A DNA stretch of 64,000 nt from an uncultured delta proteobacterium (GTDB lineage: Bacteria; Myxococcota_A; Polyangia; Polyangiales; Polyangiaceae): positions 288,001-352,000 of the forward strand of contig CAWAIF010000002.1 in the NCBI GenBank assembly GCA_963782055.1. Direction: 5' to 3'. Made by a program: the position numbers and the translations under genes. Numbering within the stretch: position 1 is the first letter of the stretch; every line of letters begins with the position of its first letter. Under the pieces are notes generated by a model that did not search any database, was not told where the DNA came from, and saw only the letters and a program-made list of their open reading frames with translations. Shown in pieces: positions 38,510 to 59,524 of the stretch.

Positions 38510-39790
38510 ATGACCCAAGGACAGACCTCGCCGCGCCGTGTGGCGATGATCCTCTCCGGGGGCGGAGCGCGCGGGGCCTACGAGGTAGGTGTCCTCTCGT
38601 ACCTCTACGACGATCTGACGCGCCTGCTCGGCGGGCCGCCCAAGCTCGACATCATCTCCGGCACGAGCGTGGGCGCCATCAACGGCTGCTTCCTCGCCGC
38701 GCACCTCGCCGACCCTGTCCTGGGCATGCGCCGCCTCGTCGGCCTCTGGACCGAGCTGGAGCTCACCCGCGTCCTCGGGTTCGGCGTGCGGCAGCTCGTC
38801 GGCCTCCCGCGGCTCGCCCTCGGCGGCGGCGGGGAGGGCAACGGCCTCTTCGACGTGCGGCCCATGGCGGAGCTGGTCTCGCGCGAGATCAGCTGGCGCG
38901 CCGTCACCCGCAGCCTGCGCAAGCGGCAGCTCCGCGCCCTGAGCGTCTCCACCACCGAGGTCTCGACCGGCCGCACCGTGGTCTTCATGCAGACCTCGCC
39001 GGATCTCACCATCCCGGCGCACGCCCCGCCGCGCACCCTCTTCCGGCACGACCACATCGGCCCGCACCACGCGCTGGCGAGCGCCGCCATCCCGCTGCTC
39101 TTCCCGCCCGTCCGCATCGACGACGAGCTGTACCTGGACGGCGGCCTTCGCCAGAACACCCCCATCGCCCCCGCGCTGCGTCTCGGCGCCACCCACATCT
39201 TCGCCATCGGCGGCTCGCGCGAGGTGCGCGGCCTGGTCAAGAGCGAGGAGGGTCCCCACATGAGCCGCTCGCCCGGCGCGGCCTTCTTGCTGGGCAAGGT
39301 GCTCAACGCCTTCCTCCTCGATCACATCGACGTGGACATCGAGCTCTTGACGCGCGTCAACAACGTCATCGCCGACGGCACCCGCGCCTACGGCGAGGGA
39401 TTCACCGAGGGCCTCACCGCGCAGGCGCAGCGCCGCGGCGCGCCGCCGTACCGCTACGTCAACTGCTTCGCCCTCCGGCCGAGCGAGGACATCGGCCGCA
39501 TGGCGTCGCTCCACGTGCGCCGCGGCCGCTTCAAGGGCGACCCCTTCGTCACCAAGAAGATCCTCTCCCTGCTCGACCTGGGCGTCGGCACCGAGGCGGA
39601 CCTCTCCTCCTACCTCATGTTCGACGGCCAGTTCTGCCGCCAGCTCATCGAGCTCGGCCGCGCCGACGCGCGCGCCCGCCGCCACGAGATGATCGCCTTC
39701 TTCGAGGGCGGGGATGAGCCCGGCCCGCCCATCGACCCGGAGGAGAGCGGCGCCTGGACGATGCCCTCGACCTTCCCTCTCGGCACCTGA
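38510..39790 (+). CDS. Patatin-like phospholipase
   Basis: LSGGGARGAY, GTSVG (GxSxG), ASAAIP, YLDGG. Confidence 0.94.
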   Translation: MTQGQTSPRRVAMILSGGGARGAYEVGVLSYLYDDLTRLLGGPPKLDIISGTSVGAINGCFLAAHLADPVLGMRRLVGLWTELELTRVLGFGVRQLVGLPRLALGGGGEGNGLFDVRPMAELVSREISWRAVTRSLRKRQLRALSVSTTEVSTGRTVVFMQTSPDLTIPAHAPPRTLFRHDHIGPHHALASAAIPLLFPPVRIDDELYLDGGLRQNTPIAPALRLGATHIFAIGGSREVRGLVKSEEGPHMSRSPGAAFLLGKVLNAFLLDHIDVDIELLTRVNNVIADGTRAYGEGFTEGLTAQAQRRGAPPYRYVNCFALRPSEDIGRMASLHVRRGRFKGDPFVTKKILSLLDLGVGTEADLSSYLMFDGQFCRQLIELGRADARARRHEMIAFFEGGDEPGPPIDPEESGAWTMPSTFPLGT

Positions 39791-44898: not shown

Positions 44899-46062
44899 TC
44901 AGGTGGCCAGCAGCGACGAGGGCGGACGGAAATCGGCGGGCACGCCCGCCAGCCCGCGCTCGAGCATGTCCTCCCAGTAGCGCGTCCCGAGCTGCACGGC
45001 GTAGGCGTCCAGCAAGGACGAGAGCGAGCGGACGCGCTCCACCGCGGCGATCACCCCGCGGAGCGCCGGGAACAGCGGCGTGAGGCGCGAGCGCGGGATG
45101 CCCAGCTTGTCGGCGAGCTCCGCGCCGAGCAGCCGCCGGCTGATCCCCCGCGCCACGGGCGCCATCCTCGCGGCGCGCCGGCGCTCCGCGTCGGTCCGCG
45201 CGCGCCTCCGGCCCACCTCCATCAGCGCGGCCGTCAGCGCTCGCGAGTCGGCGTCGGGCTCGCCCTGCGTGCGCACGATGAGGTCGGCGAGCTTCAGCCC
45301 ATCCTGCTCCGTCGGCGGCAAGAGCTCGGGGTCCACACCCAGCACGCTGCCGACGTAGCGCCAGAGCTGCACGTAGCGCTGCGCCTCCGCCACCGTCACG
45401 CGGAAGCCGAGCTTGCGCAGGCCGGCCAGCACCACCAGAGAGAAGAGCATCGTCGTCGCGACCATGTCGTGCTGGTTGATGGGCGCGCCCCACGCGTCGG
45501 CGTCCCAGCGGCCGGAGTCCTCCAGCAGCCGCCGCACATGCGCGTGCACCAGGCGCACGCGCACCGCGATGCAGAAGCCGTCGGCGCCGCGGCGCATCCC
45601 GCCGGGCAGACACACCGCGTGCACGAAGCGCCCCGTCTCGGTCAGCCGCCGGGGTGCCTGCTCCATCAAGCGTCCGCTCATGGCGAGCGGCTTGTTGCCC
45701 CCGGGCGACGCGTAGCCGTACGGCAGCGACTGCAACCCCAGGATGAGCCCGCCGAAGTACCCGGCGCGCAGCAGCACCTCGCCGCCGCGGTCGAGCGTCC
45801 CCCAGTCCACCCACGGCGGCACGCGCTCCACCGCCTCGAAGAGCGCGCGCACCGCGGGGTGCGCGTCGGGCACGCTCGCGACGCCGCGCGCCAGGGCCGC
45901 CTCCACCTGTCGCCAGCCGGCGCCGGGGGGCATCTCGTCGAAGGCGGAGACCACCGCGTCGGCGAGCGGGTCGGTGCGCAGGAGGTACGGCGCGAGCCTG
46001 TCGACGCGGTCTCCGTGCGCCGCGCGCGCGGCCGTCGTGGCGAGGAAGCGGGTCGGGATCAC
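44899..46062 (-). CDS. MpaB/Lcp-like oxygenase family protein (DUF2236)
   Basis: DPLAD, PPWVDW, RRLTET, VRVRLVHAHVRR, WGAPINQHDM, LWRYVG. Confidence 0.85.
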   Translation of the reverse strand: MIPTRFLATTAARAAHGDRVDRLAPYLLRTDPLADAVVSAFDEMPPGAGWRQVEAALARGVASVPDAHPAVRALFEAVERVPPWVDWGTLDRGGEVLLRAGYFGGLILGLQSLPYGYASPGGNKPLAMSGRLMEQAPRRLTETGRFVHAVCLPGGMRRGADGFCIAVRVRLVHAHVRRLLEDSGRWDADAWGAPINQHDMVATTMLFSLVVLAGLRKLGFRVTVAEAQRYVQLWRYVGSVLGVDPELLPPTEQDGLKLADLIVRTQGEPDADSRALTAALMEVGRRRARTDAERRRAARMAPVARGISRRLLGAELADKLGIPRSRLTPLFPALRGVIAAVERVRSLSSLLDAYAVQLGTRYWEDMLERGLAGVPADFRPPSSLLAT

Positions 46063-46120
46063 CAACGCTTCTTCTATACGACGGTTCGCGCGCCCGTTCG
46101 AGCGCCTCGACCGCGGCGCG

Positions 46121-47575
46121 TCACTGCGCGGCGCTCTCGACCTGGTAGACGTCCTTCGCGACGCCGTCAGCGCCCCCGTTGTCGCTGGCGCCGCCGAAGC
46201 CACCCTTGCCCGCCGCGCCCACCTGCACGTCGGCGGTCACCTCCGGCGCGTGCACGTCGTACATGACGCCCACCGAGACGCCGCCGGCGCCGCCGGCGCC
46301 GGTGCCGCCGTGGCCGCCGTGGCCACCGCCGCCGCTCGCGCAGATCCCGCCGGCGGCCTGCCCGCCCACCTGCCCCGACTGAGCATTCGAGCCCAAGCCG
46401 CCGTGGCCGCCTGCGTGCGTGACGATCTCACCGCCGCTCACCACCAGCGTCGTCTCGCCCGCGGCGAGCACGCCGATGCTCCCGCCGCCGCCCTGCCCGC
46501 CGCCGCCGCCCGCGCCGCCACACCCGCCGCACGATCCGCCGGGACCTCCGTAGCCGTAGTTGCCGGAGGCGCCGCCGCCGCCCTGGCCCACGCCGCCGCT
46601 CTGGCCGGCCGAACCGTCCTGCGGGGCCCATTTCCCCTGCGCGTCCAGCCCACCCACGATCGGGGCCGCCACGCCCTCCTTACCCACCGCCCCGGCCGCG
46701 CCGGTGTGCCCGGCACCGCACTGCGCGTTGCCCAGGTTGAAGAGGCCGCCGGCGCCGTCGACGCCCGCCTGCACCACGGTGTCGGCCGGGCTGCCCTTGG
46801 CGCCGTCGGTGCCCTTCGCGCCGCCCGCGCCGCCGAGGGAGTACGTCCCGTCCTTGCAGGAGCACTTCTTGGATGTGCCGCCGCTCACGCCGGACGCCGC
46901 GCTGCCCACGACGCTCGGGTCGTTGCTGGCGACGGGGTCGTAGTTGCTGCCGGGCACGCCGCCCGCGCCATCCTGTCCGCGCCCGGCCTCGATGTGCGCC
47001 CCCACGAAGGAGACCTTGCCCGCGTCGTGCAGCGCCACGGCCGTGCTCGTCTGGCCGGGCTGCCCGGCGTCGCGCGCGACGATGGACACGTCCTCGAAGA
47101 CGTGCGCGCCGCCTGTGCCGGTCATCGTCAGCGGGTTCGGGCCGGCCCCGAGGGTCGACGCGTCGCCGGTGTAGCTCCAGTCGGCGCAGGAGAAGCCGCC
47201 GTAGAGGTTGGCGGCGTGGGAGGCGTCCATCGTGACGTCCTCCGGGTACGCGCCGGCGCACAGGAAGATGGTGCCGCGTCCGTCGAGCATCTTCAGGGCG
47301 GCGCCCACCGTGCGCAGCGGCGCGGTACGTGAGCCCGCCCCGGTCTGATCGTCACCGTTGGGCGAGACGAAGACGCCTGCGGTCTCGGTCACGCACGCCG
47401 GATCGTCCTTCGGCTCCTGTCCGGACGCGCATGTGGGCGTGGTGCCGCCGTCAGCGCTGGTGCCGCCGGTGCTGTCGCCTGGCAGCTCGCCGCCCGGAGC
47501 GAAGGTGTCCGCCGTGCACCCGACGACGAGCGCGAGCACCGAGAGACCGAGAAGACCGAAGACCCGACCGACCAT
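46121..47575 (-). CDS. Gly-rich (PGRS-like) lipoprotein with DUF1565-like N-domain; divergent paralog
   Basis: Lipobox VVGC; GVFVSPNGDDQTGAGSRTAPLRTVGAAL, GAYPE, YGGFSCADW; GGGGSIG and GGAGGVSVG motifs. Confidence 0.85.
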   Translation of the reverse strand: MVGRVFGLLGLSVLALVVGCTADTFAPGGELPGDSTGGTSADGGTTPTCASGQEPKDDPACVTETAGVFVSPNGDDQTGAGSRTAPLRTVGAALKMLDGRGTIFLCAGAYPEDVTMDASHAANLYGGFSCADWSYTGDASTLGAGPNPLTMTGTGGAHVFEDVSIVARDAGQPGQTSTAVALHDAGKVSFVGAHIEAGRGQDGAGGVPGSNYDPVASNDPSVVGSAASGVSGGTSKKCSCKDGTYSLGGAGGAKGTDGAKGSPADTVVQAGVDGAGGLFNLGNAQCGAGHTGAAGAVGKEGVAAPIVGGLDAQGKWAPQDGSAGQSGGVGQGGGGASGNYGYGGPGGSCGGCGGAGGGGGQGGGGSIGVLAAGETTLVVSGGEIVTHAGGHGGLGSNAQSGQVGGQAAGGICASGGGGHGGHGGTGAGGAGGVSVGVMYDVHAPEVTADVQVGAAGKGGFGGASDNGGADGVAKDVYQVESAAQ

Positions 47576-47620
47576 GGACCACCTCCGCGGTGCCCATCGG
47601 CCGGGGGCGTCGGGAGGTTG

Positions 47621-49030
47621 CTACGGGATGGTGACCTGCGCCTGCGCCAGCCCGGGGATGCCATCGTCGTTGGCGCCGGCACCGGAGCCCGCCGCGCCGG
47701 CGTTTCCCACCTTGGTCTTCGTGGCGCTGTCCACGTCGGGAAGGGGCAGGCCCTTGATGAGCAGCGCGGCGGACACGCCGCCCGCGCCGCCGCCGCCGCT
47801 GCCGCCGTTGCCACCGGGCCCGCCGCCGCCGCCGGAGCATCCGTCGAGGTAGCCGTTGCCCCTGGCGCCCCCCTGCGGCATCCCCTGGATCCCGGTGACG
47901 CCTCTGCCGCCGTCGCCGGCGTCGTTGGCGAAGAGCTGAGACGCGAAGACGTGCACCTTGCTCGTGTCGACGGCGAGCGCCGCGCTCGCTCCCCCGCCGC
48001 CGCCTCCCTTGCCGCCCGGTCCGCCGCAACCGCCCGCGCCGCCGCCGCCGCCGCCGCCGGTGTTGCCGCCATTGTAGTTGCCGCCGCCGCCACCGCCCCC
48101 CTGGCCCACTCCGCCGTTGGCGCCGTCGCCCCCGGCCGTCGGCATCCAGGTTCCGTCCGGCGCGAAGTCCCCGAGCGTCGCCGCTCCCACCCCGTCGCCG
48201 CCCGATTTGCCCGCGCTTCCGCCGCCGCCGCCCTGGCAGCTCACATTGCCGCCCCCTCCACCGGCGCCGCCGCCGAGCGCCGGCATGCCGTCGTCCCCCT
48301 TCGAGCCGCTGTCCCCCCCCTGACCGCCGGTGGTGGTCTCGCCGGTAGGGCACTTGGAGTAGGTCATGGCGGCGCCGCCGCTGTTGCCGGTGGAGTCGTG
48401 GCCCTTGAGGTCGATCACCGGAGGCATCGCGGCGGAGGGTGGTACCGCGGAGGCGCCGCCCGATCCCCTGCCGGCGGTGAGCACGACGCGCACGAACGTG
48501 ACGTCCTTGGACTTGGACACCAACGCCGCGATGCTCGACTCACCCGGGTTGCTCCCGCTCCCCGCCGCGACGCTGACGTCGGAGATCAAGATCCCCCGGT
48601 CGGGCACGGTGATGCGCAGCGGGAGGTTGCTCGCGCCGATCGTCGGCACGCTCGACGCGTTGTACGCCCAGTCCCCGCACTCCAGCCCGCCGATGAGGCT
48701 CGCCGCTTTCTTCGCCTGGAGCGACACGTCCTCGAGGTAGTGACCCTGGCACACGTACACGCGGGGCTTGCCCCCTAGGTTGTCCAGCGCGTGCCCGATC
48801 GTCTTGAACGGGTGCTCCTTCGTCCCGTCCCCGGTCTGGTCGTTGCCGCCGGTGCCGTCCACGAAGACGCCCACTTCGTCCGTGACGCACGCGGCGGAGT
48901 CCATCGGCGTCTTCGCGAGATCGCAGCCGCTCGGGACGCCTGCGTCCGCGCCGGCGTCGTCGTTGTTGAAGGAATCCCCCCCGCACGCCACGAAAATCAG
49001 GCCCGCGAGCCCGAGGGCAAGGTGTCGCAT
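47621..49030 (-). CDS. Gly-rich (PGRS-like) lipoprotein with DUF1565-like N-domain; divergent paralog
   Basis: Lipobox FVAC; GVFVDGTGGNDQTGDGTKEHPFKTIGHAL, VYVCQGHY.E; GGAGGCGG..GGGGGAS. Confidence 0.87.
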   Translation of the reverse strand: MRHLALGLAGLIFVACGGDSFNNDDAGADAGVPSGCDLAKTPMDSAACVTDEVGVFVDGTGGNDQTGDGTKEHPFKTIGHALDNLGGKPRVYVCQGHYLEDVSLQAKKAASLIGGLECGDWAYNASSVPTIGASNLPLRITVPDRGILISDVSVAAGSGSNPGESSIAALVSKSKDVTFVRVVLTAGRGSGGASAVPPSAAMPPVIDLKGHDSTGNSGGAAMTYSKCPTGETTTGGQGGDSGSKGDDGMPALGGGAGGGGGNVSCQGGGGGSAGKSGGDGVGAATLGDFAPDGTWMPTAGGDGANGGVGQGGGGGGGNYNGGNTGGGGGGGAGGCGGPGGKGGGGGGASAALAVDTSKVHVFASQLFANDAGDGGRGVTGIQGMPQGGARGNGYLDGCSGGGGGPGGNGGSGGGGAGGVSAALLIKGLPLPDVDSATKTKVGNAGAAGSGAGANDDGIPGLAQAQVTIP

Positions 49031-49102
49031 CGATCAGTCCTCCTCGCTTCGAAGAAAAGAAAAGTCCGGCGCACAAAGCGTAGCGCACCGCGCCGCCGGG
49101 GA

Positions 49103-49134
49103 AAGAAAGCTGCACCGCCGTCGCTTTCTTGACA
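49103..49134. promoter_or_regulatory. 8-bp inverted repeat (AAGAAAGC-N12-GCTTTCTT) overlapping a TTGACA hexamer in a divergent intergenic region
   Basis: Arms 49103-49110 and 49123-49130; TTGACA 49129-49134; no convincing -10 at canonical spacing. Confidence 0.4.
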
Positions 49135-49252
49135 ACCGCGCGGACCCCCGGGTCGAGGGGCGGGGGACATGCGCGGACTTGGGCATCGGCCGCAAAGGAG
49201 GGTACGCTCGGCGCGTCATGTGCAGGCGTGCGTACCACCGCGGGAGTTTCGC

Positions 49253-49912
49253 GTGAGCAAGGTCGACACCGATCAGGGCCTCGGTCCGCCGAGCAGCGAG
49301 TCACGGGTCAAGTCGGCGGACGCGGCGGAGGGGCAGGCGCCCCCGCAGGCCTCGCGCAAGGCGGACACGCTGGACGAGCTGCTGGACGACTTCGGCCCGC
49401 AGCGACCGGACCAGCCGCGCATCCGCCCCAAGGCGGAGACGACGCCGCCGCCCGCGCCGGTGAAGAAGGAGCTGACGCCGACGGAGCCGGGCATGCGGCA
49501 GAAACGCAACCGCGTCCTGGTCGCCACCACGCTCGCGATCGTGGTGACCCTGGTGCTGGGGCTCGGGGTGCTCAAGCTGGTGCGCTCCTCGCCGGAGACG
49601 CCGCCCGCGCCGAGCGCGACGCAGACCGCGCGACAGCCGCCGCCGGAGACGCTCACCGCGACGGTGGGGACCACCGCGGAGACGGCGCCCGCGCCCGCGG
49701 CGAGCGCCACCGCGGTGGAGACCGCAGCGACCACCACCGTCCCCGCCGCGCACACCGCGCAGCCTCACCACACGTCGGAGGCGCCCCGTGCGAGCGCCAC
49801 CGCGCACGCCACCACCACCGCCACGGCCACCGCGACGCCGCACCCGACCGCGCACCCCGCGGGCAGCGCGCCTCCCGGGATGAACCTGCTCCCCGACGAT
49901 CCCCACCGATGA
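49253..49912 (+). CDS. Single-TM protein with Thr/Ala/Pro-rich tail, resembling the post-kinase part of a membrane kinase
   Basis: GGGAG before GTG 49253; RNR + VLVATTLAIVVTLVLGLGVL TM; low-complexity tail; ATGA overlap with the next gene. Confidence 0.7.
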   Translation: MSKVDTDQGLGPPSSESRVKSADAAEGQAPPQASRKADTLDELLDDFGPQRPDQPRIRPKAETTPPPAPVKKELTPTEPGMRQKRNRVLVATTLAIVVTLVLGLGVLKLVRSSPETPPAPSATQTARQPPPETLTATVGTTAETAPAPAASATAVETAATTTVPAAHTAQPHHTSEAPRASATAHATTTATATATPHPTAHPAGSAPPGMNLLPDDPHR

Positions 49913-50943
49913 GAACGTACTTCCTCTTGCCGCTCGCCCTCGCCGGCGGGCTGCTCTCCGCGTCCGCCTTCGCCCAGGACCAGACCTCCCCCGAGTACCA
50001 GGAGGCCAAGCAGCGCCTCCAGGAGGGCAAGGCCCTCTACGGGCAGGGCAACATCGACGGCGCGCGCCTCAAGTTCGAGCAGGCGTGCTCGGTGCTCAAG
50101 ACGCCGGCGTGCCTGCGCGCGCTGGGCCTGTCGGACTTCTACACGAAGCGCTACCTGGAGGCGCTCGGCAACCTGCAGAAGGCGCTGGAGGACAAGGAGC
50201 TGACCACCACGCAGCGCAAGCAGGTGACCGACCTGATGCAGCAGGCGTACGCGCAGACGGGGCACCTGGAGATCACCGCGCCGGCGGGCGGTCGCGTGCG
50301 CATCGACGACACCGTCGACGAGGGCAACGCGCCGCTGAGCGACGAGGTGCACGTCACGGCGGGGCAGCACATCGTCAGCGTGACGGTCGACACGCACGCC
50401 GAGCGCATGACGGTGGACTGCGCGCAGGGGAAGCTGGTGAAGGTGGACTTCACGAGCAAGTTCCCCGCGGCGAGCGGCGCGACGGGTGGCGCGGGCGCGC
50501 AGGGGAACGGCGGGGTCGGCCAGCCTGGCGGCCCTGGCGAGGGCGGGGAGCAACACCACGCGGGGGGGGGCGTGACCCGCTGGATCGTCGGCGGCGCGGT
50601 GGCGGCTGTCGGCCTGGTGGGCGTGGGCCTGGGCGTGGGCTTCCTGGTGGACTCCGGCTCGGCCAGCGACGACGCGGCGAACCTCCGCACGCAGCTCGGC
50701 GCGAGCGCGTCGTGCCCGGGGGCGGACGCCGCGCAGTGCGCGACGCTGAGCGGGCTGAAGGATCGCTACGACAACGGACAGACGCTCGGTCCGGTGTTTC
50801 TGGGCGTGGGCGTGGGCCTGGTGGTCGCGGGCGCGGCCACCGCGCTGCTCTGGCCCGGACCGAAGAAGGAGCAGTCGACCGGCCTGCGGGTCGTGCCCTT
50901 CGTGGGGCGCGAGTCGGGCGTCGCCGTGCTCGGTGCTTTCTAG
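49909..50943 (+). CDS. Exported TPR + PEGA-like protein with Gly-rich hairpin and C-terminal Phe
   Basis: Signal peptide ...AFAQ; AKQRLQEGKALYGQG...ARLKFEQA TPR; GHLEITAPAGGRVRID...VTAGQHIV PEGA-like; ends VAVLGAF. Confidence 0.85.
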   Translation: MRTYFLLPLALAGGLLSASAFAQDQTSPEYQEAKQRLQEGKALYGQGNIDGARLKFEQACSVLKTPACLRALGLSDFYTKRYLEALGNLQKALEDKELTTTQRKQVTDLMQQAYAQTGHLEITAPAGGRVRIDDTVDEGNAPLSDEVHVTAGQHIVSVTVDTHAERMTVDCAQGKLVKVDFTSKFPAASGATGGAGAQGNGGVGQPGGPGEGGEQHHAGGGVTRWIVGGAVAAVGLVGVGLGVGFLVDSGSASDDAANLRTQLGASASCPGADAAQCATLSGLKDRYDNGQTLGPVFLGVGVGLVVAGAATALLWPGPKKEQSTGLRVVPFVGRESGVAVLGAF

Positions 50944-50959
50944 AAACAGGGAGAGGAAG

Positions 50960-52484
50960 ATGCGTCACCTTGCATGCTTGACCGGCTGCGTCCTCGTCGC
51001 CGGTGCCGTGGTCTTCGTCGCGCCGGGCTGCGGCTCGGCGGATTGCTCCTTCGAATCTCACCTGCGCGAACGCCGACGGCGGGACGGACGGCGGGGGAGA
51101 CGTGACGGTGGACGCGGGGCCGGACGGCTCCGGTTGTGACGTGGTCGCCGACCCGTCGTGCATCGACGAGTCGAGCGGAGTGTTCGTCTCTCCGACCGGG
51201 GACGACTCGCACGACGGGAGCAAGGCCAACCCGCTGGCCACCATCGGCGCGGCGCTGAAGAAGAACAAGGCGCGCGTCTACATCTGCCAGGGGACGTACG
51301 CGGAGAACGTGGACATCAAGGCCAACGTGGACCTGCTCGGCGGGTATGCGTGCGGGGACTGGTCGTACGCGGCCTCCAACGCCGCCACGATCCAGCCGGG
51401 GAGCGGGCTTGCGCTGCACGTGGACTCGGCGACGAGCGTGGTCCGGGATCTGAAGTTCGTGGGGGCGGACGCGTCGAAGGCGGGGGACTCGTCCATCGGC
51501 GCGCTCGCGGCGAGCTCGACGGTGACGTTGGTGCGCGACGACATCGAGGCGGGGAAGGGGATGAGCGCGACGCCGCCGTCGGCCCAGGCGGACTTCACGC
51601 CGGCGCAGGCGAGCAGCGGCAACACTGGAACGCTCAACAATGGCGGTGGACAGCAACCGGTGACGTGTCCCAATGGGAGCGGGAGTACGACGGGGGGAGC
51701 GGGCGGACCGCCCGGCGGAGCAAATGGCGTGAAGGGACAACCATTTGCCACCTACACGGTCAACCCCCCCAATGCTGATGGGACCGGTGGCGTGACGGGG
51801 AGTGATTGCATTGCGGGCCTCGGTCGAAACGGCTCCTACGGTCCCGGCGGCGCCGCGGGTGCGGGCGCGGCCAAGGCGGGCACGCTCGACGCGACGGGCT
51901 GGGCGCCCTCCGCCGGTGGTGCGGGCGGCACCGGCAAGGTCGGCGAGGGCGGCGGAGGCGGGGCGAGCCTGGACTCTGCCGGTGGCGGTGGCGGCGGCGG
52001 AGCTGGCGGCTGCGGTGGCACGGGCGGAGCGGCCGGCCCGGGTGGCGGAGCGAGCATCGCGCTCACGCTGGTGCAGTCCACCGCGACGCTCACGCAGACG
52101 AAGCTCGTCGCGAAGGACGCCGGCGACGGCGCGAAGGGGGGCACAGGGCAGAAGGCGCAGGGGGGTGGGAACGCCGGCTCGTTCTTCGCGACGTCGTGCA
52201 ATGGCGGCGCCGGCGGCCACGGTGGCTCCGGCGGCGGTGGCGGCGGCGGCGCGGGAGGCCTCTCCGTGGGCATCCTGTGGACCGGCACCGCGCCGACCAT
52301 CGACGGTTCCTCCACGTCGTCGGCGGACACCCTCGCGACGGTGACGACGGGCAAGGCCGGCGCGGCGGGCGCAGGCGGCGCCGGGGGTACCGCCGTGAAG
52401 ACCAGCAACCCCGCGAGCAACGCCGGCGCGGCCGGCAATCCGGGTTTGGCGGGGGTCGCCAAGGCCGTGATGCAGGCACCATGA
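50960..52484 (+). CDS. Gly-rich lipoprotein, array copy A1; apparent +1 frameshift at about 51053-51057
   Basis: GGAGAGG RBS; MRHLACLTGCVLVAGAVVFVAPGC leader in one frame and body in the next; removing one A from GAATC gives ...CSFDLTCANADGG in frame. Confidence 0.83.
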
Positions 52485-52522
52485 ATCGCCCTCTCTCGTC
52501 TCGCCACGAGGTCGGGTAGACC

Positions 52523-54022
52523 ATGCGCTGGTCCATCGGCCTCTCGTCTGCGCTCGCCATCGGCATCACCTGCGTCGCCGGTTGCGGGGATAGCTCCAGC
52601 GCGAACGCCGACGGCGGGACGGACGGCGGGGGAGACGTGACGGTGGACGCGGGGCCGGACGCGCCGCCCGGGTGCGATCTCACCAAGGACCCGAAGGACT
52701 CCCCCGCGTGCGTGGACGACGCGGTGGGCATCTTCGTGGACGGCACGAACGGCGACGACGGCAACGCGGGGACGAAGCTCGAGCCGGTGAAGACGATCGG
52801 CGCGGCGCTGAAGCTCACGAGCGCGCAGCAGGCGCGCGTGTACGTGTGCAAGGGGGTGTACGCGGAGGACGTGGTGGTGGACGCGAGCCACGACGGCGTG
52901 TCCATCTACGGCGGGTGGCGGTGCGCGGACTGGAGCTACAGCGGGACCAAGCCCATCGTGGGCGCGGGGACGATGGCGCTGAAGCTCGACGGCCTGACGA
53001 AGGCGGTGACCATCGAGGACATGGACTGGAAGTCGGCGGACGCGACGGCGGACGGCGGGTCGAGCATCGCGGCGTTCGTGAACGGCTGCGCGAACGTGAC
53101 GCTGGTGAGGGACACGCTGGAAGCGGGGAAGGGTAAGGCCGGCGCAGCGGGGAAGGCGGGGAGCAACTACACGGCGGTGGCGCAAGGCGACACCTCGATC
53201 AAGGGCAAGGATGGCAACGGGATCGTTGGCGGCGGGCCGCACGCCTGCACCTTGTGTACCGATGGTAAGAACTCAACCGGAGGGTTTGGCGGAAACGGGG
53301 GAACGTCGCCGGGTGATGGTCAGGACGGAACGCCCAATCTGGGTGGCATCAACCCGTTGGACGGAAAGGGTGGTGCCAAGGACATCGGCAGTGGATGCAC
53401 GTCAGGACACAAGGGTCCAACGGGCGACGCGGGGATAGCTGCCGTGGCTATTGCCGCTTCGGGCGTGCTGGATCCCACCGGATGGAAGCCGGCGATGGGC
53501 GGGGCTGGGTCCAATGGTGGGCCCGGTCAAGGTGGCGGCGGGGGTGGCGGAGGTCTGGACGGCAACAACACCGCAGGAGGCGCTGGTGGCGGCGGTTGTG
53601 GTGGCTGCGGCGGCGCCTCGGGATCTGGCGGTGGAGGCGGGGGCGCCAGCATCGCGCTAGCCGTCCTGTCCTCGACGGTTCAGGTCGCCTCGAGCAGCAT
53701 GGCGAGCACCGTCGCCGGCAACGGCGGAGCGGGTGCAGCAGGGCAGGCAGGGCAGGCCGGCGGATTCAGCGGCCAGAACATCAACCCCGGTTGCTCCGGC
53801 GGTACCGGCGGCACCGGCGGAGCCGGTGGCGCAGGAGGCGGCGGGGCAGGCGGCATCTCCGTCGGCGTGCTCTGGAAGGGCACCGCGGCGCCGACGCTTG
53901 ACTCGTCAACGACCAGCAACATCGTCTTCGCGCAGCAGGGCGGCGCCAAGGGCACCGGCGGCGCGCCCGGCCAGAACGACGGCATCGACGGCGTCGCGCA
54001 GGCCGTGCTCGAGGTGAAGTAG
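52523..54022 (+). CDS. Gly-rich lipoprotein, array copy B1
   Basis: Lipobox VAGC; GIFVDGTNGDDGNAGTKLEPVKTIGAAL; Gly-rich C-terminal half. Confidence 0.9.
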   Translation: MRWSIGLSSALAIGITCVAGCGDSSSANADGGTDGGGDVTVDAGPDAPPGCDLTKDPKDSPACVDDAVGIFVDGTNGDDGNAGTKLEPVKTIGAALKLTSAQQARVYVCKGVYAEDVVVDASHDGVSIYGGWRCADWSYSGTKPIVGAGTMALKLDGLTKAVTIEDMDWKSADATADGGSSIAAFVNGCANVTLVRDTLEAGKGKAGAAGKAGSNYTAVAQGDTSIKGKDGNGIVGGGPHACTLCTDGKNSTGGFGGNGGTSPGDGQDGTPNLGGINPLDGKGGAKDIGSGCTSGHKGPTGDAGIAAVAIAASGVLDPTGWKPAMGGAGSNGGPGQGGGGGGGGLDGNNTAGGAGGGGCGGCGGASGSGGGGGGASIALAVLSSTVQVASSSMASTVAGNGGAGAAGQAGQAGGFSGQNINPGCSGGTGGTGGAGGAGGGGAGGISVGVLWKGTAAPTLDSSTTSNIVFAQQGGAKGTGGAPGQNDGIDGVAQAVLEVK

Positions 54023-54025
54023 GTC

Positions 54026-55471
54026 ATGCGCCGCCTCGGGGGGATCGCTTGCGTGCTCGTCGCGGCCTGCCTCGCCGGTTGCGGGGACAGCTCCAGCACG
54101 AACGCCGACGGCGGGACGGACGGCGGGGGAGACGTGACGGTGGACGCGGGGCCGGACGCGCCGCCCGGGTGCGAACTCACCAAGGACCCGAAAGACTCGG
54201 CGGCGTGCGTGGACGACGCGGTGGGCATCTTCGTGGACGGCACGAACGGCGACGACGGCAACGCGGGGACGAAGCTCGAGCCGGTGAAGACGATCGGCGC
54301 CGCGCTGAAGCTGACGAGCGCGCAGCAGGCGCGCGTGTACGTGTGCGAGGGGACGTACGCGGAGGACGTGGTGGTGGACGCGAGCCACGACGGGGTGTCC
54401 ATCTACGGCGGGTGGCGGTGCGCGGACTGGAGCTACAGCGGGACCAAGCCCATCGTGGGCGCGGGGACGATGGCGCTGAAGCTCGACGGCCTGACGAAGG
54501 CGGTGACCATCGAGGACATGGACTGGAAGTCGGCGGACGCGACGGCGGACGGCGGGTCGAGCATCGCGGCGTTCGTGAACGGGTGCGCGAACGTGACGCT
54601 GGTGAGGGACACGCTGGAAGCGGGCAAGGGCAAGGCCGGCGCGGCGGGGACGCTGACGAACTTCAACTACCCGGACCAGGCGACGCTGAACGGGAAGGAC
54701 GCGTCGGGTATGACGGGTGGGCCGGCCAACGCGGTGAAGTGTCCGGCCGGCGACACGACGACGGGAGGCAAAGGCGGAGACAACGGCAGCACCGGCGACC
54801 CAGGTCTTCCAAGCCTAGGCGCAGGACAGGGGGGGACCCTGGCAGCTTGCGGTAGTGGCGGCTCAGGGAGTGACGGCGCTCCTGCATCGAAGGGACCGGA
54901 TGGCTCGGCGCCGTCGGGGCTAGGTAGCCTTTCCAGTCAAGGATGGGCAAGCATGGCTGGCGGGGCGGCCAAAGCGGGTGGCCCCGGGCAAGGGGGTGGA
55001 GGTGGGCTTGGCTTCGGAGGCGGCGGTGGCGGCGGGGGCGGCGCGGGTGGGTGCGGCGGTGCCGGCGGACCCGGTGGCGGTGGCGGGGGCGCCAGCGTCG
55101 CACTGGTGGTGCTGTCCTCCACCGTGACCGTGACGGCGAGCGCGCTGCAGGCGGCCACCGCGGGTGCCGGGGGAACTGGCGCGGCGGGACAGCCGGGAGA
55201 GACTACTTTCGGCTTTCACGGCAACGGGACCGGCGCTGGCTGCCAGGGCGGCAACGGCGGCACCGGCGGAAATGGTGGCGCAGGAGGCGGCGGGGCGGGT
55301 GGCATCTCCGTCGGCGTGCTCTGGAAGGGCACCGCGGCGCCGACGCTTGACTCATCAACGAACACCAACATCGTCTTCGCGCAGCAGGGCGGCGCCAAGG
55401 GCACCGGCGGCGCGCCCGGCACCAACGACGGCATCGACGGCGTCGCCCAGGCCGTGCTCGAGGTGAAGTAG
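54026..55471 (+). CDS. Gly-rich lipoprotein, array copy B2
   Basis: Lipobox LAGC; N-domain nearly identical to B1, different central cassette. Confidence 0.9.
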   Translation: MRRLGGIACVLVAACLAGCGDSSSTNADGGTDGGGDVTVDAGPDAPPGCELTKDPKDSAACVDDAVGIFVDGTNGDDGNAGTKLEPVKTIGAALKLTSAQQARVYVCEGTYAEDVVVDASHDGVSIYGGWRCADWSYSGTKPIVGAGTMALKLDGLTKAVTIEDMDWKSADATADGGSSIAAFVNGCANVTLVRDTLEAGKGKAGAAGTLTNFNYPDQATLNGKDASGMTGGPANAVKCPAGDTTTGGKGGDNGSTGDPGLPSLGAGQGGTLAACGSGGSGSDGAPASKGPDGSAPSGLGSLSSQGWASMAGGAAKAGGPGQGGGGGLGFGGGGGGGGGAGGCGGAGGPGGGGGGASVALVVLSSTVTVTASALQAATAGAGGTGAAGQPGETTFGFHGNGTGAGCQGGNGGTGGNGGAGGGGAGGISVGVLWKGTAAPTLDSSTNTNIVFAQQGGAKGTGGAPGTNDGIDGVAQAVLEVK

Positions 55472-55474
55472 GTC

Positions 55475-56979
55475 ATGCGCCGCCTCGGGGGATCGCTTGC
55501 GTGCTCGTCGCGGCCTGCGTCGCCGGTTGCGGGGACAGCTCCAGCACGAACGCCGACGGCGGGACGGATGGGGGCGGGGGAGACGTGACGGTGGACGCGG
55601 GGCCGGACGGCTCCGGTTGTGACGTGGTCGCCGACCCGTCGTGCATCGACGAGTCGAGCGGCGTGTTCGTCTCTCCGACCGGGGACGACTCGCACGACGG
55701 GAGCAAGGCCAACCCGCTGGCCACCATCGGCGCGGCGCTGAAGAAGAACAAGGCGCGCGTCTACATCTGCCAGGGGACGTACGCGGAGAACGTGGACATC
55801 AAGGCCAACGTGGACCTGCTCGGCGGGTATGCGTGCGGGGACTGGTCGTACGCGGCCTCCAACGCCGCCACGATCCAGCCGGGGAGCGGGCTTGCGCTGC
55901 ACGTGGACTCGGCGACGAGCGTGGTCCGGGATCTGAAGTTCGTGGGGGCGGACGCGTCGAAGGCGGGGGACTCGTCCATCGGCGCGCTCGCGGCGAGCTC
56001 GACGGTGACGTTGGTGCGCGACGACATCGAGGCGGGGAAGGGGATGAGCGCGACGCCGCCGTCGGCCCAGGCGGACTTCACGCCGGCGCAGGCGAGCAGC
56101 GGCGATGGCGGGAAGGTGAACAACGGCGGCGCGCAGACGCCGAACAACTGCCCGAATGGGAGCGGCAACAGCATCGGCGGTGCAGGGGGCCCGCCTGGCG
56201 CAAACAATGGCTCGAAGGGGCAGCCGTTCGCTTCCTATCCCGTGAATCCAGCAATGGCGGATGGGACAGGCGGGACGACGGGAAGCAATTGTATCGCTGG
56301 GCTCGGCCGTGACGGCTCCTACGGTCCCGGCGGCGCCGCGGGTGCGGGCGCGGCCAAGGCGGGCACGCTCGACGCGACGGGCTGGGCGCCCTCCGCCGGT
56401 GGTGCGGGCGGCACCGGCAAGGTCGGCGAGGGCGGCGGAGGCGGGGCGAGCCTGGACTCTGCAGGAGGCGGTGGCGGCGGCGGAGCTGGCGGCTGCGGTG
56501 GCACGGGCGGAGCGGCTGGCCCGGGTGGCGGAGCGAGCATCGCGCTCGCGCTGGTGCAGTCCACCGCGACGCTCACGCAGACGAAGCTCGTCGCGAAGGA
56601 CGCCGGCGACGGCGCGAAGGGGGGCACAGGGCAGAAGGCGCAGGGGGGTGGAGGCTCGGGTGGCGCGGGTGGAACTCCCGGCGTCGATGCGTGCGGTGGC
56701 GGCGCAGGCGGTCATGGCGGCTCCGGCGGCGGTGGCGGCGGCGGCGCGGGAGGCCTCTCCGTGGGCATCCTGTGGACCGGCACCGCGCCGACCATCGACG
56801 GTTCCTCCACGTCGTCGGCGGACACCCTCGCGACGGTGACGACGGGCAAGGCCGGCGCGGCGGGCGCAGGCGGCGCCGGGGGTACCGCCGTGAAGACCAG
56901 CAACCCCGCGAGCAACGCCGGCGCGGCCGGCAATCCGGGCCCGGCGGGGGTCGCCAGGGCCGTGATGCAGGCACCATGA
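55475..56979 (+). CDS. Gly-rich lipoprotein, array copy A2; apparent -1 frameshift in G-run 55487-55491
   Basis: Leader matches B2 (atgcgccgcctc-Gn-atcgcttgc) but has 5 G instead of 6; body nearly identical to A1 outside the variable blocks. Confidence 0.87.
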
Positions 56980-57017
56980 ATCGCCCTCTCTCGTCTCGCC
57001 ACGAGGTCGGGTAGACC

Positions 57018-58469
57018 ATGCGCTGGTCCATCGGCCTCTCGTCTGCGCTCGCCATCGGCATCACCTGCATCGCCGGTTGCGGTGACAGCTCCAGCGCGAA
57101 CGCCGACGGCGGGACGGACGGCGGGGGAGACGTGACGGTGGACGCGGGGCCTGACGCGCCGCCCGGGTGCGATCTCACCAAGGACCCGAAGGACTCCCCC
57201 GCGTGCGTGGACGACTCGGTGGGGATCTTCGTGGACGGGACGGCCGGGGACGACGGCAACGCGGGGACGAAGGAGAAGCCGGTGAAGACGATCGGCGCCG
57301 CGCTGAAGCTGACGAGCGCGCAGCAGGCGCGCGTGTACGTGTGCGAGGGGACGTACGCGGAGGACGTGGTGGTGGACGCGAGCCACGACGGGGTGTCCAT
57401 CTACGGCGGGTGGCGGTGCGCGGACTGGAGCTACAGCGGGACGAAGCCCATCGTGGGGGTGGGGACGATGGCGCTGAGGCTGGACGGGCTGACGAAGGCT
57501 GTGACCATCGAGGACATGGACTGGAAGTCGGCGGACGCGACGGCGGACGGCGGGTCGAGCATCGCGGCGTTCGTGAACGGCTGCGCGAACGTGACGCTGG
57601 TGAGGGACACGCTGGAAGCGGGCAAGGGCAAGGCCGGCGCGGCGGGGACGCTGACGAACTTCAACTACCCGGACCAGGCGACGCTGAACGGGAAGGACGC
57701 GTCGGGTATGACGGGTGGGCCGGCCAACGCGGTGAAGTGTCCGGCCGGCGACACGACGACGGGAGGCAAAGGCGGAGACAACGGCAGCACCGGCGACCCA
57801 GGTCTTCCAAGCCTAGGCGCAGGACAGGGGGGGACCCTGGCAGCTTGCGGTAGTGGCGGCTCAGGGAGTGACGGCGCTCCTGCATCGAAGGGACCGGATG
57901 GCTCGGCGCCGTCGGGGCTAGGTAGCCTTTCCAGTCAAGGATGGGCAAGCATGGCTGGCGGGGCGGCCAAAGCGGGTGGCCCCGGGCAAGGGGGTGGAGG
58001 TGGGCTTGGCTTCGGAGGCGGCGGTGGCGGCGGGGGCGGCGCGGGTGGGTGCGGCGGTGCCGGCGGTACCGGCGGCGGAGGCGGTGGAGCGAGCATCGCG
58101 CTGGTCGTGCTGTCGTCCACCGTCAGCATGACAACGAGCACGCTGCAGGCGGGCACGGCTGGCGCCGGAGGAGCAGGTGCCGCCGGGCAACCCGGGCAGG
58201 GCATCTACGGCTTTGGTGGAAACAAAACGGCTGGTGGCTGCCAGGGTGGCAACGGCGGCACCGGCGGAAACGGTGGTGCCGGAGGCGGCGGGGCGGGTGG
58301 CATCTCCGTCGGCGTGCTCTGGAAGGGCACCGCGGCGCCAACGCTTGACCCGTCAACGAACACCAACATCGTCTTCGCACAGCAGGGCGGCGCGAAGGGC
58401 ACCGGGGGCGCGCCCGGCACCAACGACGGCATCGACGGCGTCGCTCAGGCCGTGCTGGAAGTGAAGTAG
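57018..58469 (+). CDS. Gly-rich lipoprotein, array copy B3
   Basis: B1-type leader MRWSIGLSS..., B2-type central cassette, own distal variable block. Confidence 0.9.
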   Translation: MRWSIGLSSALAIGITCIAGCGDSSSANADGGTDGGGDVTVDAGPDAPPGCDLTKDPKDSPACVDDSVGIFVDGTAGDDGNAGTKEKPVKTIGAALKLTSAQQARVYVCEGTYAEDVVVDASHDGVSIYGGWRCADWSYSGTKPIVGVGTMALRLDGLTKAVTIEDMDWKSADATADGGSSIAAFVNGCANVTLVRDTLEAGKGKAGAAGTLTNFNYPDQATLNGKDASGMTGGPANAVKCPAGDTTTGGKGGDNGSTGDPGLPSLGAGQGGTLAACGSGGSGSDGAPASKGPDGSAPSGLGSLSSQGWASMAGGAAKAGGPGQGGGGGLGFGGGGGGGGGAGGCGGAGGTGGGGGGASIALVVLSSTVSMTTSTLQAGTAGAGGAGAAGQPGQGIYGFGGNKTAGGCQGGNGGTGGNGGAGGGGAGGISVGVLWKGTAAPTLDPSTNTNIVFAQQGGAKGTGGAPGTNDGIDGVAQAVLEVK

Positions 58470-58472
58470 CGC

Positions 58473-58991
58473 TCAGGGGCAGTCGGCCAGCCGCGCGTCG
58501 ACCTCGAGCATGCGCGGGTGGCGCTCGCCCTTGCCCTCGGCGACGAGGGTCGCGCGGTCGCGTCGCAGCGCGGCGCACTCCTCCGCGCTCGGAGGGGGCA
58601 TGGGCTTCGAGTCCCCGCAGAGCGCCAGCTTGGCGGCGGCGACCACCATCTCCGGATGGGCAGGCCCGTATCCGCGCGCCACCATCGCCTCGCGATCGCG
58701 CAGCACGCGCGCGCACGCCTCCGCCGAGGGCGTGCGGTCCTGACACTTCGCGAGGGCCGCCTCCACCTCCAGCACCTCCGGGTGCCGCTCGCCCTTGCCA
58801 CGCGCGCGCAGCTCGGCGCGGTCGAGCGCGAGATCGCCGCAGCTCTCGCCCTGGTGGCTGGGCGCGATCACGATGGGCGCCGGGCCCGCCGGGCGGGGCG
58901 GGGGCAGGACCGCGACGACGACGGTACGCTGCGGGGGCGCGTGGGCGCACGCGACCATGCACAGCGCAACGATCGAGACGGCGAGCCTCAC
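58473..58991 (-). CDS. Small lipoprotein with three G(K/Y)G..HP helical repeats
   Basis: GTG start overlapping the upstream stop; lipobox MVAC; repeats GKGERHPEV, GYGPAHPEM, GKGERHPRM, each flanked by Cys. Confidence 0.72.
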   Translation of the reverse strand: MRLAVSIVALCMVACAHAPPQRTVVVAVLPPPRPAGPAPIVIAPSHQGESCGDLALDRAELRARGKGERHPEVLEVEAALAKCQDRTPSAEACARVLRDREAMVARGYGPAHPEMVVAAAKLALCGDSKPMPPPSAEECAALRRDRATLVAEGKGERHPRMLEVDARLADCP

Positions 58992-59524
58992 TGCAGCAAC
59001 AGCCCTTCGCCCGCCCCGCAGCGAGCGACCAGCGCCGCGAGCGCGCTCATGAGCGCCGTCACGCCGGCCACCTCCCACGCGCCGCGCGTCTTCTCCAGCG
59101 CCTCCCCCAGCGCGGCGATCTCGCCCGGCGCGACGAGGCTCGGTCCCTGGTCGGCGAGCCAGGCAGGGAGCCCGTGGTCGGGGGCGAACACCTCGCGGAT
59201 CACCGCGGCGGCGCTCGCGTCCTCCGCCGAGCCTGCGAGCGCCCCCAGCAGCTTCGCGGGCGCGTCCTCCACGTCCAGGTTCTCCAGCCTGTCGCGCTCC
59301 AGGGCGAGGGCGAGGGCCTCCGCACCGCCGGCGATGAAGCGCTCGCCCTTGCCGAACCAGAGCAGCTTTTTCTTGCGCTCGACCTTGAGGCCCTCGATCT
59401 GTCGCTCGCGCAGCAGGCCCTCGAGCGGCGTCATCGCCTCGTACTCGCGCGCCTTCTCGAACGCGGCGAGCAAGCGCTCCGCGTGCGTCCAGGGAATGCG
59501 ATCGACCGAACCGACCAGCGCCAT
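58988..59524 (-). CDS. Hypothetical protein
   Basis: 178-aa ORF just downstream of trxA with host-like codon usage; no motif recognised. Confidence 0.6.
   Translation of the reverse strand: MALVGSVDRIPWTHAERLLAAFEKAREYEAMTPLEGLLRERQIEGLKVERKKKLLWFGKGERFIAGGAEALALALERDRLENLDVEDAPAKLLGALAGSAEDASAAAVIREVFAPDHGLPAWLADQGPSLVAPGEIAALGEALEKTRGAWEVAGVTALMSALAALVARCGAGEGLLLQ

What the first reader, a model, noticed from the sequence alone, without database searches (positions are those of the whole stretch)
50960..58469. Five-gene lipoprotein array with constant scaffolds and sharply bounded variable cassettes: candidate surface-diversification system
Seen: order A1-B1-B2-A2-B3. A1 and A2 are almost base-identical except for about 51621-51830 vs 56104-56313 (same length and Cys spacing, many amino-acid and synonymous changes) and about 52167-52223 vs 56650-56718. 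B1 and B2 share their N-domain and last ~190 bp but differ over about 53154-53827 vs 54650-55275. B3 carries B2's first cassette essentially unchanged (54650-55068 = 57648-58066) but a different distal block. The cassettes have many more A/T-ending codons (e.g. ggtcttccaagcctaggc) than the rest of the window. Inference: constant regions are homogenised by gene conversion while old or imported cassette alleles are shuffled, as in antigenic-variation or allorecognition loci. Possible roles are kin or prey recognition, or phage evasion. No recombinase or reverse transcriptase is in the window, so homologous recombination is the simplest mechanism.
Basis: partly seen in the sequence, partly recalled or inferred. 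Interest (0 to 1): 0.85.

Follow-up and report, generated by a model that had tools for sequence, protein, structure and literature searches.

The report
Loop-swapping surface lipoprotein array in myxobacteria
A myxobacterium carries five neighbouring surface-protein genes whose frames are nearly identical but whose outer loops are old, different modules apparently swapped by recombination, a design that recalls the host-recognising tip of some phages and may give the cell a set of different binding specificities.

Summary
Five tandem lipoprotein genes (A1-B1-B2-A2-B3) have near-identical scaffolds and sharply bounded divergent patches. The predicted fold is a short right-handed beta-helix carrying a polyglycine-II bundle. 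The patches lie between glycine runs, as in the T-even phage adhesin gp38; no sequence homology to gp38 was found.

The patches are old alleles, not fresh mutations. Synonymous sites are near saturation, dN is below dS, and changes are not adenine-biased. A1's short patch is 25/26 residues identical to one in another species with only 8 codons shared.

The same constant-frame, variable-patch layout recurs in 6 of 21 multi-gene loci from other genomes. No recombinase or reverse transcriptase was found on this contig.

Best reading: unequal crossing-over and patchy gene conversion maintain a repertoire of binding loops on an adhesin-like lipoprotein. The ligand, surface exposure and ongoing switching are untested, and no reads were listed. 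A1 and A2 each have a 5' frameshift, real or sequencing error. The evolutionary logic is known; I found no description of this protein family.

The parts
49909..50943 (+). TPR-PEGA protein with a C-terminal hydrophobic hairpin around a Cys pair; recurrent upstream partner gene
   Evidence: weak TPR_2 match; TPR/PEGA clusters of Myxococcota; a relative lies in 36 of 43 family loci
50960..52484 (+). A1 lipoprotein gene; 1-bp frameshift near 51050-51062; carries the N-terminal Cys pair typical of the first gene after a TPR-PEGA gene
51064..51126 (+). 63-bp hinge in the linker; copies at 52599-52661, 54096-54158, 55544-55609, 57094-57156; likely crossover site between A and B types
   Evidence: 100, 100, 98, 92 and 98% identity
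51621..51828 (+). A1 patch V1 (loops A-B)
   Evidence: pS 0.80, pN 0.20 against A2; 27/70 A/T-ending codons
52169..52223 (+). A1 patch V2 (loop D); allele shared with another species
   Evidence: 25/26 aa identical to L021 with 8 identical codons
52523..54022 (+). B1 lipoprotein gene, intact; modelled as beta-helix plus polyglycine-II bundle
53154..53830 (+). B1 variable block; its V1 part belongs to an allele class also found on unrelated scaffolds
   Evidence: V1 67-68/91 aa identical to the C3 pair and to L001, whose N-domains are 43-46% identical; AU test p=0.0005
54026..55471 (+). B2 lipoprotein gene, intact
54584..55068 (+). 485 bp identical to 57582-58066 in B3 (recent conversion tract or duplication remnant, covering B2's V1)
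55069..55282 (+). B2 distal patch (rung and loop D); differs from B3 58067-58280
   Evidence: dS 0.87, dN 0.14
55475..56979 (+). A2 lipoprotein gene; B2-type 5' end with a G5 run at 55487-55491 where B2 has G6, which shifts the frame
56104..56311 (+). A2 patch V1
56652..56718 (+). A2 patch V2; allele shared with a third species
   Evidence: 26/30 aa identical to the L016 gene with 8 identical codons
57018..58469 (+). B3 lipoprotein gene, intact; B1-type 5' end, B2-type V1, own distal patch
46121..47575 (-). older paralog of the same family, divergently transcribed
47621..49030 (-). second older paralog; this pair shows no patchy identity

Best explanation
This is a tandem array of exported lipoproteins built like a receptor-binding adhesin: lipid anchor, flexible linker, short right-handed beta-helix, and a polyglycine-II bundle whose turns form up to four variable loops. 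Shown: the mosaic DNA pattern, the great age of the loop alleles, their sharing across species, and recurrence of the layout in other genera. Modelled: the fold. Inferred, step 1: the array grows and rearranges by ordinary homologous recombination. Crossovers in the shared hinge and N-domain move a gene body together with the next gene's 5' end, and short conversion tracts keep the scaffolds alike. Inferred, step 2: the loop patches escape homogenisation because each allele binds its own ligand and is selected to persist, and because its synonymous divergence blocks recombination inside it, so patches move only as whole blocks bounded by glycine-run DNA. Inferred, step 3: the result is a repertoire of binding specificities for other cells or their surface polymers (prey or neighbours), displayed with the help of the TPR-PEGA protein. 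I put about 0.8 on the recombination history and about 0.55 on the binding-repertoire function.
For: Patchiness and tracts. In all 4 junctions of the array the 5' end follows the type of the preceding gene's 3' end, and the C3 pair has the same B-type junction. Age and purifying selection: dS 0.87 to saturated vs dN 0.14-0.53 in patches, dS at most 0.26 in scaffolds. Trans-species alleles: short patches 25/26 and 26/30 aa identical to other species' genes while flanks are 74-80% identical. Tree conflict: B1+B2+B3 form a clade in the N-domain (100/99) and are rejected as one in V1 (p=0.0005). Recurrence: 6 of 21 multi-gene loci from other genomes have a near-identical pair, each with the N-domain at 86% or more identical codons and V1 lower. 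Over 7 such pairs, differing codons are 52% in loop B, 40% in loop D and 24% in loop A vs 6% in the beta-helix (boundaries drawn). Fold: pLDDT 92.6 and 96.8; beta-helix Z 14.9 over 185 residues; snow-flea polyglycine-II bundle Z 7.9, rmsd 1.8 over 78 of 81; gp38 Z 4.0 and 3.8. gp38 uses the same design for receptor choice (PMC3157838, PMC12892980).
Against: No ligand, localisation or expression data. No reads or second strain, so present-day switching is unshown. I could not read the model's coordinates; that the loops gather at one exposed tip is inferred from the order of strands and glycine runs. Family-wide, V1 tracks the N-domain almost as well as the C-end does: best partner within the top 3 for 59-68 of 140 vs 66-67 of 140, and 76 of 140 between N halves. 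Only 12 pairs combine similar V1 with a distant N-domain, 11 of them in one allele class, so swaps between distant scaffolds are occasional. 15 of 21 multi-gene loci had no near-identical pair. The gp38 fold scores are weak and no sequence homology was found. Both A genes are frameshifted in this assembly.
Confidence: 0.6

Rival explanations
1. Ordinary concerted evolution without selection for diversity. Tolerant loops drift fastest, pass a divergence threshold, and then simply stop being converted, while the rest keeps being homogenised.
For: The patches fall in the family's least conserved, gap-rich stretches. The family-wide nearest-neighbour test shows little extra shuffling of V1. Saturated dS shows age, not benefit.
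Against: Short-patch alleles are more conserved across species (25/26, 26/30 aa) than their flanks (74-80%) despite recoded codons. B1's V1 is 74-75% identical on scaffolds 43-46% identical. Drifting loops should not do that.
Confidence: 0.2
2. Escape from enemies. The proteins are phage or predator receptors, and the array (with A1/A2 as switched-off donors or phase-variable copies) varies the exposed loops to avoid recognition.
For: Variable predicted loops on a lipoprotein. Both A genes have a 5' frameshift, one in a G run, while only 54 of 4987 gene-like frames in the genome look frameshifted.
Against: dN is below dS in every patch. Alleles persist across species. No silent partial cassettes elsewhere in the genome. 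The two frameshifts are different lesions, the G run is short, and related assemblies show many such errors.
Confidence: 0.12
3. Assembly or polishing artefact: chimeric or collapsed repeats.
For: No reads could be laid. Two frameshifts in the array and one 485-bp exact match between B2 and B3.
Against: Frames stay open across every patch boundary. Copies have private sites in tracts. Alleles match real proteins elsewhere. The layout recurs in six other genomes. The assembly has 3 contigs.
Confidence: 0.04
4. A different biochemical role: a polysaccharide-acting beta-helix enzyme, or an ice- or surface-binding polyglycine-II protein, with loop variation incidental.
For: The best fold matches are polysaccharide enzymes and springtail antifreeze proteins.
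Against: Only about 185 residues align to the enzymes' longer helices at 11-16% identity. The N-domain that would hold a catalytic groove is the homogenised part. A shared fold shows no function. Catalytic residues were not tested.
Confidence: 0.04

Closest known systems
gp38 adhesin of T2/T6/S16/PP01 phages (PMC3157838, PMC12892980: abstracts and passages read)
   Same: Beta-helix plus polyglycine-II lattice with protruding variable loops; conserved glycine-rich motifs separate a limited palette of variable segments; exchanges fall in or near the conserved motifs. Both gp38 structures appear in the fold search (Z 4.0, 3.8).
   Different: Cellular lipoprotein of about 490 aa in multi-copy chromosomal arrays, not a single phage tail gene. 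No sequence homology found. Ligand unknown.
Staphylococcus aureus lpl tandem lipoprotein cluster (PMC2568036: abstract and outline read)
   Same: A conserved internal segment serves as crossover site, and the 3' end of one gene travels with the 5' end of the next.
   Different: Unrelated protein. Here there are several internal patches per gene. The lpl model rests on many strains; I have one genome per species.
Myxobacterial TraA kin-recognition receptor (PMC6372800: passages read)
   Same: Polymorphic myxobacterial surface protein whose variable part conflicts with the rest of the gene in trees; horizontal transfer and recombination are proposed there.
   Different: TraA has a PA14-like variable domain, Cys-rich repeats, MYXO-CTERM and the partner TraB, and is described as a single locus. 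None of these was matched here.
Mycobacterial PE_PGRS proteins (PMC13243192: passages read)
   Same: Glycine-rich multi-gene surface family with modelled polyglycine/PPII bundles; automatic annotation calls relatives 'PGRS family protein'.
   Different: No PE domain. A lipoprotein signal and a beta-helix instead. The shared name reflects composition only.
DUF1565 (PF07602) / Leptospira LIC10774-type surface proteins
   Same: The first part of the beta-helix matches weakly (30-35 bits vs cut-off 380); 9 of 120 listed homologues carry PF07602.
   Different: The match covers about 60 residues; the window's own proteins have no Pfam hit at E<=0.1.

Membership tests
T-even gp38 adhesin | beta-helix plus polyglycine-II bundle | tested here: met
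   Predicted models only: (snow-flea bundle Z 7.9; gp38 itself only Z 4.0 and 3.8)
T-even gp38 adhesin | variable segments between conserved glycine-rich motifs | tested here: met
T-even gp38 adhesin | sequence homology to gp38 | tested here: not met
   no gp38 among 18 PDB sequences at E<=10; PHROGs gave one unrelated N-domain hit
T-even gp38 adhesin | phage tail-fibre locus | tested here: not met
   neighbours are cellular genes (ligA, thioredoxin, kinases); the genes begin with lipoprotein-type signals
T-even gp38 adhesin | loops determine receptor specificity | not testable with these tools
   needs binding assays
Diversity-generating retroelement | reverse transcriptase near the target gene | tested here: not met
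   13 RVT_1 matches in the genome, all on contig C3; the array is on C2
Diversity-generating retroelement | template repeat and adenine-specific changes | tested here: not met
   A is involved in 17 and 15 of 74 differences (A1/A2 V1) and 7 and 16 of 51 (B2/B3); no template copy
Site-specific inversion system (shufflon type) | linked recombinase and inverted cassettes | tested here: not met
   23 tyrosine- and 5 serine-recombinase matches, none on C2; the five genes are direct repeats
Silent-cassette gene conversion (vlsE/pilE type; features recalled) | archive of silent partial cassettes and one expression site | tested here: inconclusive
   no partial cassettes elsewhere, but A1 and A2 are frameshifted and could be silent full-length donors
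TraA/TraB kin recognition | PA14-like variable domain, Cys-rich repeats, MYXO-CTERM | tested here: not met
   no such Pfam or NCBIfam hit; the fold is a beta-helix
TraA/TraB kin recognition | homotypic, allele-specific cell binding | not testable with these tools
   needs cell-mixing assays
lpl-type tandem paralog cluster | conserved internal crossover segment; 3' end and next 5' end travel together | tested here: met
   hinge in 5 of 5 genes; 4 of 4 junctions; shared linkers in L069, L070, L078, L085
lpl-type tandem paralog cluster | rearrangements between strains of one species | not testable with these tools
   no second strain found
PE_PGRS | N-terminal PE domain | tested here: not met
   no Pfam hit; lipoprotein-type N-terminus
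DUF1565 (PF07602) | match above the family cut-off | tested here: not met
   none for the seven window proteins; 9 of 120 homologues carry it

The most novel reading that the evidence does not exclude
These arrays are an undescribed contact-recognition repertoire of this group of myxobacteria: antibody-like loop sets on a polyglycine-II scaffold, recombined as blocks, kept apart by recoded A/T-rich codons, and presented by a cognate TPR-PEGA membrane protein that docks the Cys-pair N-terminus. They would be candidates for the unknown receptors that tell prey or neighbours from self, a cellular counterpart of phage gp38.
Probability: 0.25. Interest if true: 0.88.

Novelty: new variant of a known kind. 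Interest (0 to 1): 0.63.

Why it matters
How predatory myxobacteria recognise the cells they touch is described as unknown (PMC10433427, passages read). This family is widespread: it matched 130 of 150 other genomes of the family and 53 of 200 of the phylum. It offers natural pairs that differ only in defined loops (A1/A2, B2/B3, the C3 pair, L066, L082), so the role of each loop can be tested directly. It would also extend the phage gp38 design to cells and supply a stable scaffold with exchangeable loops.

Tried and rejected
Sequencing runs: none was listed, so no reads were laid; this is not evidence that none exists.

Close strains: the hinge pattern had 0 exact matches in metagenome contigs; A2 gave 2 distant loci there and 2 in genome contigs.

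Complex prediction of the TPR-PEGA protein with the lipoprotein was not available, so binding is untested.

Foldseek gave no match at E<=0.001 for either model. No sigma-70-type promoter in 45500-59500 and no terminator-like site within the array. TraA N-terminal family: no match in the genome, but the control rang nowhere, so this is uninformative.

The first A/T background was contaminated by shadow frames and was replaced. No DNA donor for the A/T-rich patches was found; four-fold sites are near saturation against all relatives compared. The careful V1 tree did not finish; the AU test was run on 28 of the 42 rows with a quick LG+G4 tree. In those trees B1's V1 class is not a clean clade, as E1, E2 and L018 nest within it.

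Earlier findings: three look-ups returned nothing.

Literature: 0 papers for DUF1565+myxobacteria, PGRS+Sorangium+lipoprotein and myxobacteria+PEGA domain+lipoprotein. Searches listed no title on this family (listings only). The library lacks most subscription papers.

Rejected: diversity-generating retroelement, site-specific inversion, PE_PGRS membership, TraA membership.
Full report
WHAT IS THERE. The window is G000:C2:288001-352000, in a 7.58-Mb, 3-contig genome rated 97% complete. Named relatives are Polyangiaceae or Myxococcales, so the host is inferred to be a myxobacterium of that group. Five genes of about 1.5 kb run head to tail: A1 50960-52484, B1 52523-54022, B2 54026-55471, A2 55475-56979, B3 57018-58469. 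Each begins with a hydrophobic signal ending in Cys, read by eye as a lipoprotein signal. An acidic linker, a domain of about 155 residues and a glycine-rich remainder follow. Two older paralogs lie at 46121-49030 on the other strand. The genome holds 14 family members by an N-domain profile and 15 by a full-length one.

A1 and A2 share 149/149 residues in the N-domain with one synonymous change, yet only 67/88 in V1, where 33 of the 67 shared residues use different codons. B1 and B2 are alike to 53153 and from about 53830. B2 and B3 share 485 exact bases that cover V1 and then differ for about 210 bases. The clustering beat 10,000 of 10,000 shuffles for each of four pairs, while two old paralog pairs were unremarkable. 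A/T-ending codons in the patches are 4 to 8 times what their amino-acid make-up predicts; A1's short patch (2/19) is the exception. The same region in nine family genes outside the array has 8% against 28% in the array.

HOW THE ARRAY WAS BUILT. All five genes share a 63-bp hinge although the A and B scaffolds are only about 46% identical in the N-domain. The 5' end of each gene follows the gene before it: both genes after an A-type end start alike (B1, B3), and both after a B-type end start alike (B2, A2). The second gene of the C3 pair, which follows a B-like end, starts the same way. This is the unit described for the S. aureus lpl cluster (PMC2568036, abstract read) and points to unequal crossing-over in the hinge or N-domain. 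Copy-specific sites in the three B N-domains fall into 8 runs over 34 sites (0 of 100,000 shuffles; 2 of 100,000 after collapsing by codon), the mark of conversion tracts. No dedicated machine is near: 13 reverse-transcriptase, 23 tyrosine-recombinase and 5 serine-recombinase matches all lie on contig C3.

THE PATCHES ARE OLD ALLELES. In the patches dS runs from 0.87 to saturation and dN from 0.14 to 0.53; in the scaffolds dS is at most 0.26. Changes are not adenine-biased, and apart from the B2/B3 match no patch has a near-identical copy in the genome. A1's short patch is 25/26 residues identical to a gene in a congeneric genome (L021) with only 8 identical codons. A2's is 26/30 identical to one in another congener (L016). 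The flanks are 74-80% identical. B1's V1 is 67-68/91 identical to genes whose N-domains are 43-46% identical. B1, B2 and B3 form a clade in the N-domain (100/99; 42 rows) but are rejected as one in V1 (AU p=0.0005; 28 of those rows, quick tree). Against over-reading: across 140 of 170 aligned homologues V1 follows the N-domain nearly as well as the C-end does, and only 12 pairs show similar V1 on distant scaffolds. Long-range swaps are therefore occasional.

THE LAYOUT RECURS. The family matched 130 of 150 other genomes of the family and 53 of 200 of the phylum, there often within longer open frames. I fetched 20 regions, chosen mostly because matches were adjacent, and added three earlier loci. 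Of 21 loci with two or more genes, 6 had a pair with a region at 85% or more identical codons: L003, L066, L068, L073, L076 and L082. In each the N-domain was at 86% or more and V1 lower (14-82%); 15 loci had no such pair. L066 and the genome's own C3 pair repeat the A1/A2 two-patch pattern. Over seven close pairs, differing codons were 6% in the beta-helix, 24% at B1 residues 225-262, 52% at 280-297, 18% at 342-356 and 40% at 406-432, with 10-21% between; these boundaries were drawn after viewing the map. The A/T excess of V1 over the N-domain (Gly excluded) was seen in 51 of 54 genes from multi-gene loci and 13 of 19 single genes, mean 0.118 vs 0.044; these genes are not independent. Import from lower-GC donors, escape from GC-biased conversion, and selection for codons that resist overwriting all fit. 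I could not separate them.

STRUCTURE. AlphaFold2 gave B1 a mean pLDDT of 92.6. About 185 residues align to right-handed beta-helix enzymes (Z up to 14.9); the strands are interrupted after residues 200, 394 and about 465 by glycine-rich inserts. The C-terminal 304 residues folded alone (pLDDT 96.8) match the snow-flea polyglycine-II bundle (Z 7.9, rmsd 1.8, 78 of 81 residues), a springtail bundle (Z 6.2) and, weakly, two phage gp38 adhesins (Z 4.0, 3.8). gp38 is a beta-helix plus polyglycine-II sandwich with receptor loops (PMC12892980, abstract and passages), whose four variable segments come from a limited palette and recombine at glycine-rich motifs (PMC3157838, abstract and passages). I found no sequence homology, so this is an analogy or a very remote link. 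I could not read coordinates; that the loops meet at one distal tip is inferred from the out-and-back order of the glycine runs.

PARTNER GENE. A TPR-PEGA protein with a C-terminal hydrophobic hairpin (49909-50943) precedes A1, and a relative lies in 36 of 43 family loci. Genes directly after such a partner carry an extra Cys pair behind the lipid-bearing Cys in 31 of 37 cases; genes after another family gene do so in 2 of 18 (automatic call with some visible miscalls). In the window only A1 has it. This suggests cognate docking, which is untested.

CAVEATS. A1 and A2 each have a 1-bp frameshift in the signal region, against about 54 of 4987 gene-like frames genome-wide by a rough screen. Error and real silencing cannot be told apart without reads, and no run was listed. 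Function, exposure and present-day switching are unshown.

VERDICT. The feature is real and is best read as a recombining repertoire of old binding-loop alleles on an adhesin-like lipoprotein scaffold. The mechanism class is known (gp38, lpl, TraA). I found no description of this family or its arrays in the searches named under Tried and rejected. New variant of a known kind; interest 0.63.

Noticed in passing
window 49909-50943 and L003, L075, L077, L078: The TPR-PEGA partner gene is co-duplicated with the lipoprotein in several arrays; in L003 its copies differ mainly in the Cys-pair loop of the membrane hairpin. The genome has 36 genes matching this partner profile.
   Followed up: partly
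window 50960-51063 and loci: An N-terminal Cys pair marks genes that directly follow a TPR-PEGA gene (31 of 37) and is mostly missing from later array genes (2 of 18).
   Followed up: partly
G000:C3:2441301-2444267 (L086 7301-10267): A second tandem pair in the same genome, behind a kinase and a TPR-PEGA gene, 93% identical with two short divergent patches. It joins an A-like N-domain to a B1-like V1 and a B-like 3' end, 86% identical in DNA.
   Followed up: yes
window 49169-49912: Pro-rich membrane protein with a weak GltJ-like match, in the slot where related loci often have a Ser/Thr kinase (23 of 43 loci contain one).
   Followed up: no
window 18558-20039: Protein with a C-terminal Hint domain.
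   Followed up: no
window 38510-39790: Patatin-like phospholipase with sub-threshold similarity to CBASS and other anti-phage lipases, near ligA.
   Followed up: no
G000:C3 (1993752, 2003506, 2765038 and five more): Eight equal-scoring reverse-transcriptase copies, probably a mobile intron or element, plus other RTs that lie next to integrase genes.
   Followed up: no
L016 3261-4248 and L003 4662-6221: An inverted 308-bp exact repeat and many frameshifts inside related arrays suggest assembly or read errors in those records.
   Followed up: partly
window 44899-46203: MpaB/rubber-oxygenase-family gene directly downstream of the two minus-strand paralogs.
   Followed up: no
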